A stretch of DNA of 14,825 nucleotides, taken from Escherichia coli (GTDB lineage: Bacteria > Pseudomonadota > Gammaproteobacteria > Enterobacterales > Enterobacteriaceae). Below the pieces are notes generated by a model. It worked only from the letters and a program-made list of their open reading frames with translations. It searched no databases and was not told where the DNA came from. Below are positions 2,311-2,341 of this stretch, in pieces. The stretch's first letter is position 1, and every line of letters starts with the position of its first letter. The position numbers and the translations under genes are program-made. Where the stretch lies: assembly GCF_044324875.1 (NCBI RefSeq), contig NZ_CP172189.1; one strand, given 5' to 3'.

Positions 2311-2341
2311 CTGTACATATAACCACTGGTTTTATATACAG
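2311..2341 (-). promoter_or_regulatory. Tandem overlapping LexA (SOS) boxes in the cea promoter
   Basis: ctgtacatataaccactggttttatatacag carries two overlapping CTGT-N8-ACAG-type boxes. The minus strand has -35 TTGACA (2370-2375) upstream, then GAGGA and ATG at 2264. Confidence 0.85.

What the first reader, a model, noticed from the sequence alone, without database searches (positions are those of the whole stretch)
2311..2341. Intact double LexA operator upstream of cea
Two overlapping SOS boxes are retained with -35 TTGACA, so colicin E1 and the downstream kil should still be DNA-damage inducible. This contrasts with the second colicin locus, which has lost its promoter.
Basis: partly seen in the sequence, partly recalled or inferred. 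Interest (0 to 1): 0.2.

Follow-up and report, generated by a model that had tools for sequence, protein, structure and literature searches.

The report
Standard colicin E1 SOS operator, intact
This is the ordinary, textbook DNA-damage switch (two overlapping LexA repressor sites) in front of the colicin E1 toxin gene, letter-for-letter identical to the reference ColE1 plasmid, so it is real but not new.

Summary
Observation confirmed. On the minus strand, 2341→2311 reads CTGTATATAAAACCAG/GTGGTTATATGTACAG. These are two 16-bp LexA boxes sharing one base. They lie 5 bp downstream of a TTGACA-17 bp-TAGCTT promoter and 46 nt upstream of the cea ATG.

A LexA matrix built only from chromosomal SOS boxes ranks them first and second in the window (21.5 and 15.4 bits; next best 9.9). 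No shuffle out of 500 reaches box 1. The 156-bp promoter region is 100% identical to the ColE1 reference NC_001371. 24 of 31 operator positions are invariant across 12 colicin and pesticin promoters. cea, imm and kil encode proteins identical to a catalogued ColE1.

Interpretation supported. SOS inducibility is inferred from sequence identity to the experimentally studied operator. It was not measured here.

The contrast with the second locus also holds. That locus is a colicin Y module with intact lysis and immunity genes. Its toxin gene keeps only 69 of 629 codons and abuts an IS21-family element, and no second LexA site exists.

Novelty: already known. The more interesting by-product is that the window is a whole 14.8-kb ColE1/pColY cointegrate. 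One junction maps exactly onto the cer XerCD core and the other onto the IS.

The parts
2326..2341 (-). LexA box 1 (distal to the ATG): CTGTATATAAAACCAG; 20-mer context 2324..2343
   Evidence: Read directly. It is an exact CTG-N10-CAG. It scores 21.47 bits, the top score in the window, and 0 of 500 shuffles reach it. It is invariant or nearly so across 12 promoters.
2311..2326 (-). LexA box 2 (proximal): GTGGTTATATGTACAG, sharing the base at 2326 with box 1; 20-mer context 2309..2328
   Evidence: Read directly. It scores 15.38 bits, rank 2 in the window, and 12 of 500 shuffles reach it. The TACAG arm and the AGTG junction are invariant in alignment A1.
2370..2375 (-). -35 hexamer TTGACA of the cea promoter
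   Evidence: Read directly. Invariant in all 12 aligned promoters.
2347..2352 (-). Inferred -10 hexamer TAGCTT (3 of 6 to TATAAT), 17 bp after the -35
   Evidence: Geometry. G-T-A and T-T are invariant in A1. The generic promoter scan does not list it because the hexamer is weak. The assignment is inferred, not mapped.
2395..2410 (-). CRP-like site TTTGATCGTTTTCACA, centred about 62 bp upstream of the inferred start
   Evidence: One mismatch to TGTGA-N6-TCACA, with 0.46 such sites expected per window. Conserved in A1. CRP-cAMP stimulation of cea is reported in PMC2994835, citing Salles & Weinstock 1989.
696..2264 (-). cea, colicin E1 (522 aa)
   Evidence: ORF. Pfam PF01024 at 1.6e-34. The protein is identical to the cea product of pDETEC75.
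358..699 (+). imm, colicin E1 immunity (113 aa), convergent with cea
   Evidence: Pfam PF03526 at 1e-33. Identical to pDETEC75.
173..310 (-). kil, lysis lipoprotein (45 aa), co-oriented with cea
   Evidence: Pfam PF02402 at 8.3e-32. Identical to pDETEC75, with one residue different from NC_001371.
642..674 (.). 14-bp-stem hairpin just past the cea stop codon, inside the 3' end of imm
   Evidence: Terminator-like scan. Its role as the partial stop between cea and kil is inferred.
142..164 (-). Terminator-like hairpin plus T-run just downstream of kil
9081..9221 (-). Colicin Y lysis gene, intact but with no promoter upstream
   Evidence: Protein identical to that of pB771_9494. Pfam PF02402.
9341..9865 (+). 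Colicin Y immunity gene (174 aa), intact
   Evidence: Pfam PF03857 at 8e-39. Protein identical to Cui of pB771_9494.
9893..10107 (-). 3' stub of cya: the last 69 of 629 codons plus the stop. The 5' 1.68 kb and the promoter/operator are missing.
   Evidence: Homology to pColY ends at 10107.
10104..12742 (+). IS21-family element (ISSso4-like; istA and istB), joining the cya stub to a truncated ColE1 mbeA
   Evidence: 100% identical to the copy in p8R-3 over 10101..12742. Pfam rve and Mu-transposase C-terminal domains. No target-site duplication.

Best explanation
This is the native promoter-operator of the ColE1 cea-kil operon. A sigma-70 promoter (TTGACA, 17 bp, TAGCTT) is followed 5 bp later by two LexA boxes that overlap by one base and cover the inferred transcription start. 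In undamaged cells two LexA dimers occupy the 31-bp operator and keep RNA polymerase off the promoter. After DNA damage, RecA-stimulated LexA self-cleavage frees the promoter. With help from CRP-cAMP bound about 62 bp upstream, the promoter then makes cea mRNA, and read-through past cea makes the lysis gene kil. imm is transcribed separately from the opposite strand.

Shown here: the sequence, its geometry, its non-random match to LexA sites, its conservation, its identity to reference ColE1, and the integrity of cea, imm and kil.

Inferred from the literature: LexA binding, SOS induction, the CRP effect and read-through to kil.
For: The sequence and geometry were read directly. The two boxes rank 1 and 2 in the window on a matrix free of colicin operators, with 0 of 500 and 12 of 500 shuffles reaching them. 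The 156-bp region is 100% identical to NC_001371.1, and 138 plasmid records are at least 99% identical. 24 of 31 operator positions are invariant across 12 promoters of unrelated toxins (E1, Y, a tRNase bacteriocin, pesticin and others), against 27 of 128 positions outside the operator.

Window 1..2277 is 100% identical to ColE1 plasmid pDETEC75, and the three proteins are identical. Pfam domains are as expected. The CRP-like site is present and conserved.

[quoted passage not shown] The distal box is more conserved, and LexA binds both cooperatively (PMC11332147 citing Gillor 2008 and Ebina 1983). In the colicin K promoter the tandem operators sit just downstream of the -10 and block RNA polymerase (PMC4482635).
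Against: The -10 is weak (3 of 6) and the generic promoter scan did not call this promoter. The transcription start is inferred, not mapped. Box 2 alone is only modestly significant (12 of 500 shuffles). The primary footprinting paper (Ebina 1983) could not be read, so its content is taken second-hand.
Confidence: 0.93

Rival explanations
1. Only the distal box is a working LexA site. The proximal GTGG...ACAG box is too degenerate to bind, so this is in effect a single-operator promoter.
For: Box 2 scores 6 bits lower than box 1 and lacks the C of the CTG arm. Its published heterology index of 11.06 is high compared with recA at 4.31 (PMC2994835, Table 3).
Against: Box 2 still outscores every other site in the window by more than 5 bits, and it outscores one bona fide training site, polB at 12.8 bits. 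It sits in the exact 15-bp register seen in all 12 aligned promoters, and its arms are invariant. The literature reports cooperative LexA binding to both boxes (PMC11332147 citing Ebina 1983 and Gillor 2008).
Confidence: 0.04
2. The operator is intact, but SOS alone will not give visible induction, because the promoter also needs CRP-cAMP and may be held by a second repressor such as IscR. In that case the reader's simple prediction would fail under rich or glucose conditions.
For: The -10 is weak and there is a conserved CRP-like site. CRP-cAMP stimulation and delayed induction of cea are reported (PMC2994835, PMC4482635). IscR delays several pore-forming colicins (PMC4482635).
Against: This refines the main explanation rather than replacing it. 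The IscR-type motif at 2363..2387 occurs at chance frequency, 34 found against 34.6 expected, so IscR control of this promoter is not supported by sequence alone.
Confidence: 0.3
3. The motif is a chance occurrence in an AT-rich intergenic region, or it is really the colicin Y promoter moved in by recombination.
For: CTG-N10-CAG alone is not enriched in the window. The pColY promoter region is homologous, at 88-93% identity.
Against: The matrix score and shuffles, 100% identity to ColE1, and the fact that every site distinguishing the parents from 2332 to 3462 carries the ColE1 allele.
Confidence: 0.01

Closest known systems
ColE1 cea promoter-operator (reference plasmid NC_001371; LexA repression shown by Ebina et al. 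1983, as cited in PMC11332147)
   Same: Identical at all 156 bases compared, including the -35, the -10, both LexA boxes, the CRP-like site and the 5' leader. The downstream cea, imm and kil proteins are identical to those of a catalogued ColE1.
   Different: Nothing differs in the operator itself. Only the plasmid context differs: here ColE1 is fused to a colicin Y plasmid and its relaxase gene is cut by an IS.
Consensus enteric colicin operator with two overlapping SOS boxes (Gillor, Vriezen & Riley 2008; Lu & Chak 1996, as cited in PMC2994835 and PMC11332147)
   Same: Two boxes overlapping by one base. The distal box is closer to consensus than the proximal one. The operator is placed just after the -10.
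   Different: None. The window is a typical member.
Colicin K (cka) promoter, double-locked by LexA and IscR (Butala et al. 2012, as described in PMC4482635)
   Same: Tandem LexA operators immediately downstream of the -10 of a pore-forming colicin gene.
   Different: IscR binding at the cea promoter cannot be supported from sequence, because the motif occurs at chance frequency.
Colicin Y operon of pColY-type plasmids (for example pB771_9494; the MP1 colicin in PMC7284606)
   Same: The window's second locus is 99.5-99.9% identical over the lysis gene, the immunity gene and the 3' end of cya.
   Different: The first 560 codons of cya and its promoter with its SOS boxes are absent, replaced by an IS21-family element and ColE1 DNA.

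Membership tests
Colicin-type double LexA operator (ColE1 cea) | Two 16-bp CTG-N10-CAG-type boxes overlapping by one base (15-bp register) | tested here: met
   Box 1 is at 2341..2326 and box 2 at 2326..2311, with centres 15 bp apart. Box 2 begins GTG instead of CTG, as in wild-type ColE1.
Colicin-type double LexA operator (ColE1 cea) | Each box resembles authentic E. coli LexA sites more than chance allows | tested here: met
   21.47 and 15.38 bits on a matrix of 15 chromosomal sites (training range 12.8-25.9 bits). 0 and 12 of 500 shuffles reach these scores. The training sites were recalled from memory of the literature.
Colicin-type double LexA operator (ColE1 cea) | Placed at or just downstream of the -10 of a colicin activity gene promoter | tested here: met
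   There are 5 bp between the inferred -10 (2352..2347) and box 1, and the cea ATG is 46 nt beyond box 2. The -10 and the transcription start are inferred.
Colicin-type double LexA operator (ColE1 cea) | Sequence identity to the experimentally characterised ColE1 operator | tested here: met
   156 of 156 bases identical to NC_001371.1.
Colicin-type double LexA operator (ColE1 cea) | LexA binds, and transcription is induced by DNA damage | not testable with these tools
   Taken from the literature only (PMC2994835, PMC11332147, PMC4482635).
ColE1 cea-imm-kil operon | Intact toxin gene, opposite-strand immunity gene and co-oriented lysis gene downstream of the operator | tested here: met
   The ORFs at 2264..696(-), 358..699(+) and 310..173(-) match the expected Pfam families, and the proteins are identical to those of pDETEC75.
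CRP-activated (class I-like) promoter | TGTGA-N6-TCACA-like site centred near -61.5 | tested here: met
   TTTGATCGTTTTCACA at 2410..2395 has one mismatch, against 0.46 such sites expected per window. It is conserved. Its centre is about 62 bp from the inferred start. Binding was not tested.
IscR co-repressed colicin promoter | A type-2 IscR motif near the -35 | tested here: inconclusive
   A 7-of-9 match lies at 2363..2387(-), but the pattern occurs 34 times against 34.6 expected. The motif was recalled from memory.
Functional colicin Y operon (second locus) | Full-length cya preceded by its own SOS promoter | tested here: not met
   Only 69 of 629 residues remain. Homology to pColY stops at 10107, where the IS begins. 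No further LexA-like site above 10 bits exists in the window.

The most novel reading that the evidence does not exclude
The operator itself offers no novel reading. The least ordinary thing the evidence leaves open concerns the plasmid around it. It may be a genuine 14.8-kb ColE1/pColY cointegrate, absent from the plasmid collection and from 5,426 complete E. coli genomes, made by an IS21-family element on one side and XerCD recombination at cer on the other. The result would be one SOS-controlled colicin E1 operon, a captured orphan colicin Y immunity gene, a silenced second lysis gene, two ColE1-type origins and only one cer site.
Probability: 0.5. Interest if true: 0.3.

Novelty: already known. 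Interest (0 to 1): 0.08.

Why it matters
For annotation, the result says this plasmid should make colicin E1 and lyse a fraction of its hosts on DNA damage, exactly as ColE1 does. It should not make colicin Y, but it should still protect its host against colicin Y. No open question becomes testable through the operator itself. The plasmid's architecture is a tidy natural example of how small colicin plasmids fuse and shed parts, which is of modest interest for plasmid evolution.

Tried and rejected
The 20-bp LexA consensus with up to 3 mismatches found nothing. Box 1 has 5 mismatches to the idealised palindrome, as many natural boxes do, so a matrix was used instead.

CTG-N10-CAG and CTGT-N8-ACAG counts are near chance and do not discriminate.

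The generic promoter scan missed the cea promoter because its -10 is weak. The inverted-repeat finder found nothing, because the palindromic arms are only 5 bp.

NCBIfam gave no useful hits for the colicin genes, whereas Pfam did.

The IscR motif occurs at chance frequency and was dropped.

The primary and review papers were not held in the library: Salles 1987, Cascales 2007 and Gillor 2008. Ebina 1983 was not looked up. All four are cited only through papers that describe them.

Searches for either IS junction in plasmids and in complete E. coli genomes found no record with the same junction, so the parental IS-bearing plasmids remain unidentified.

The idea that the promoter came from pColY was rejected, because every distinguishing site carries the ColE1 allele.

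Full report
**The observation.** The 522-aa colicin E1 ORF runs 2264..696 on the minus strand, so the finding has to be read on that strand. There, 2341→2311 is CTGTATATAAAACCAGTGGTTATATGTACAG. It divides into box 1 (2341..2326, CTG-N10-CAG exact) and box 2 (2326..2311, GTG-N10-CAG). The boxes share the base at 2326 and their centres are 15 bp apart. Upstream lie TTGACA (2375..2370), a 17-bp spacer and TAGCTT (2352..2347). There are 5 bp between the -10 and box 1, and 46 nt from box 2 to the ATG.

**Is it more than chance?** The bare motif is not. CTG-N10-CAG occurs 8 times against 4.0 expected, and CTGT-N8-ACAG with one mismatch occurs 7 times against 4.9 expected. I built a symmetrised 20-bp matrix from 15 chromosomal E. 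coli LexA boxes. These were recalled from the literature, and colicin operators were left out to avoid circularity. The two boxes score 21.47 and 15.38 bits, the two best in the 14.8-kb window, with the next best at 9.94 bits. No shuffle out of 500 dinucleotide-preserving shuffles contains any site as good as box 1, and 12 of 500 contain one as good as box 2. That figure for box 2 ignores its exact register with box 1.

**Identity and conservation.**
- Region 2265..2420 is 100% identical to the ColE1 reference NC_001371.1, and 138 plasmid records are at least 99% identical.
- I aligned 12 homologous promoters: colicin E1 and variants, colicin Y, a Klebsiella tRNase bacteriocin, pesticin of pPCP1, a Shigella colicin and others.
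- In that alignment 24 of the 31 operator positions are invariant, against 27 of 128 positions elsewhere. The -35 is also invariant.
- The inner half-sites CCAG and GTGG deviate from the CTGT/ACAG ideal. They are the wild-type bases, not lesions.

**The operon behind the operator.** Window 1..2277 is 100% identical to the ColE1 plasmid pDETEC75. cea, imm (358..699, + strand) and kil (310..173, - strand) encode proteins identical to that plasmid's. They match the colicin pore domain, the ColE1 immunity family and the lysis-protein family. A strong hairpin follows the cea stop codon (642..674), and a terminator-like hairpin follows kil (164..142).

**Mechanism.**
- *Shown here:* anatomy, significance, conservation and integrity.
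[quoted passage not shown] The colicin E1 boxes have heterology indexes of 7.48 (distal) and 11.06 (proximal) (PMC2994835).
- *From the literature, box asymmetry:* the distal box is the more canonical, and LexA binds both cooperatively (PMC11332147, citing Gillor 2008 and Ebina 1983). That asymmetry matches my scores.
- *From the literature, position:* at the related colicin K promoter the tandem operators lie just downstream of the -10 and exclude RNA polymerase (PMC4482635).
- *From the literature, CRP:* CRP-cAMP stimulates cea from a site upstream of the operator (PMC2994835).
- *CRP site in this window:* TTTGATCGTTTTCACA at 2410..2395 fits, with one mismatch and 0.46 such sites expected per window. 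It is conserved in the alignment.
- *-10 hexamer:* it matches only 3 of 6 consensus positions, and the generic promoter scan did not call this promoter. That agrees with dependence on an activator.
- *IscR:* an IscR-type motif overlaps the -35 but occurs at chance frequency, so I make no claim for it.

**The second colicin locus.**
- Window 4450..10107 is 99.5% identical to the colicin Y plasmid pB771_9494.
- The lysis gene (9081..9221, - strand) and the immunity gene (9341..9865, + strand) encode proteins identical to that plasmid's.
- cya retains only its last 69 of 629 residues. At 10101/10104 an IS21-family element begins. It is ISSso4-like and 100% identical to a copy in p8R-3.
- No other LexA-like site exists in the window.

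**The whole window.**
- The window's end joins its start as in ColE1, so it is a complete circle.
- It carries two RNAI genes, at 9..113 and 8919..9021.
- It has one full-length and one IS-truncated relaxase.
- It has a single perfect cer core at 3495..3466.
- In a three-way alignment, every site that distinguishes the parents carries the ColE1 allele from 3302 to 3462 and the pColY allele from 3499 onward.
- The 36-bp gap that is uninformative is exactly the cer XerC/XerD core.
- The other junction is the IS, and it has no target-site duplication.
- Neither IS junction is found in PLSDB or in 5,426 complete E. coli genomes.

A consistent model is fusion through IS copies followed by XerCD resolution between the two cer sites. 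That would keep the circle with both origins and discard an origin-less circle carrying the cya 5' end and its promoter. The alternatives are cer-by-cer fusion followed by an IS-mediated adjacent deletion, ordinary homologous recombination, or an assembly chimera. These cannot be told apart here. None of this touches the cea promoter, which lies about 1.1 kb inside unbroken ColE1 sequence.

**Verdict.** The feature is the canonical, already-described ColE1 SOS operator. Interest is low.

Noticed in passing
window 3463..3498 (cer core 3466..3495, minus strand): The switch from ColE1 to pColY parentage falls exactly on the 30-bp cer XerC/XerD core. All distinguishing sites up to 3462 carry the ColE1 allele and all from 3499 onward carry the pColY allele. 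Only one cer core exists in the whole circle, although it has two origins. This suggests Xer-mediated recombination shaped the cointegrate. Homologous recombination is not excluded.
   Followed up: partly
window 10104..12742, with junctions at about 10101-10107 and 12742/12743: An IS21-family element (ISSso4-like; istA and istB) joins a colicin Y gene stub to a truncated ColE1 relaxase gene (mbeA, ORF 13451..12660). There is no target-site duplication. Neither junction occurs in the plasmid collection, and the cya/IS junction is also absent from the complete E. coli genomes.
   Followed up: partly
window 9..113 and 8919..9021; direct repeat 6827..8910 versus 12743..14825 (95% identical): Two ColE1-type replicons lie in direct orientation on one circle, each with RNAI, rop and mobC. 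Two origins of the same incompatibility type plus 2 kb of 95%-identical direct repeat would be expected to make the molecule prone to deletion.
   Followed up: partly
window 9081..9865: An orphan colicin Y immunity gene and an intact but promoterless colicin Y lysis gene remain. The host should be immune to colicin Y without producing it.
   Followed up: partly
window 3615..5930: About 2.3 kb of pColY-type backbone is absent from ColE1 and has no annotated genes in the related records. It contains a 72-aa ORF (3987..4205) with a transposase helix-turn-helix domain and several short ORFs with no family match.
   Followed up: partly
window 173..310 versus NC_001371.1: The Kil protein differs from the 1985 reference sequence at one residue (R24 here and in modern ColE1 records, P in NC_001371). 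This is probably an error or variant in the old reference.
   Followed up: no
window 7976..7991, 8254..8269 and their repeats 13891..13906, 14169..14184; also 4784..4799: There are five further one-mismatch CRP-like sites in the window, 6 in all against 0.46 expected. Four of them lie in the duplicated rop/origin region.
   Followed up: no
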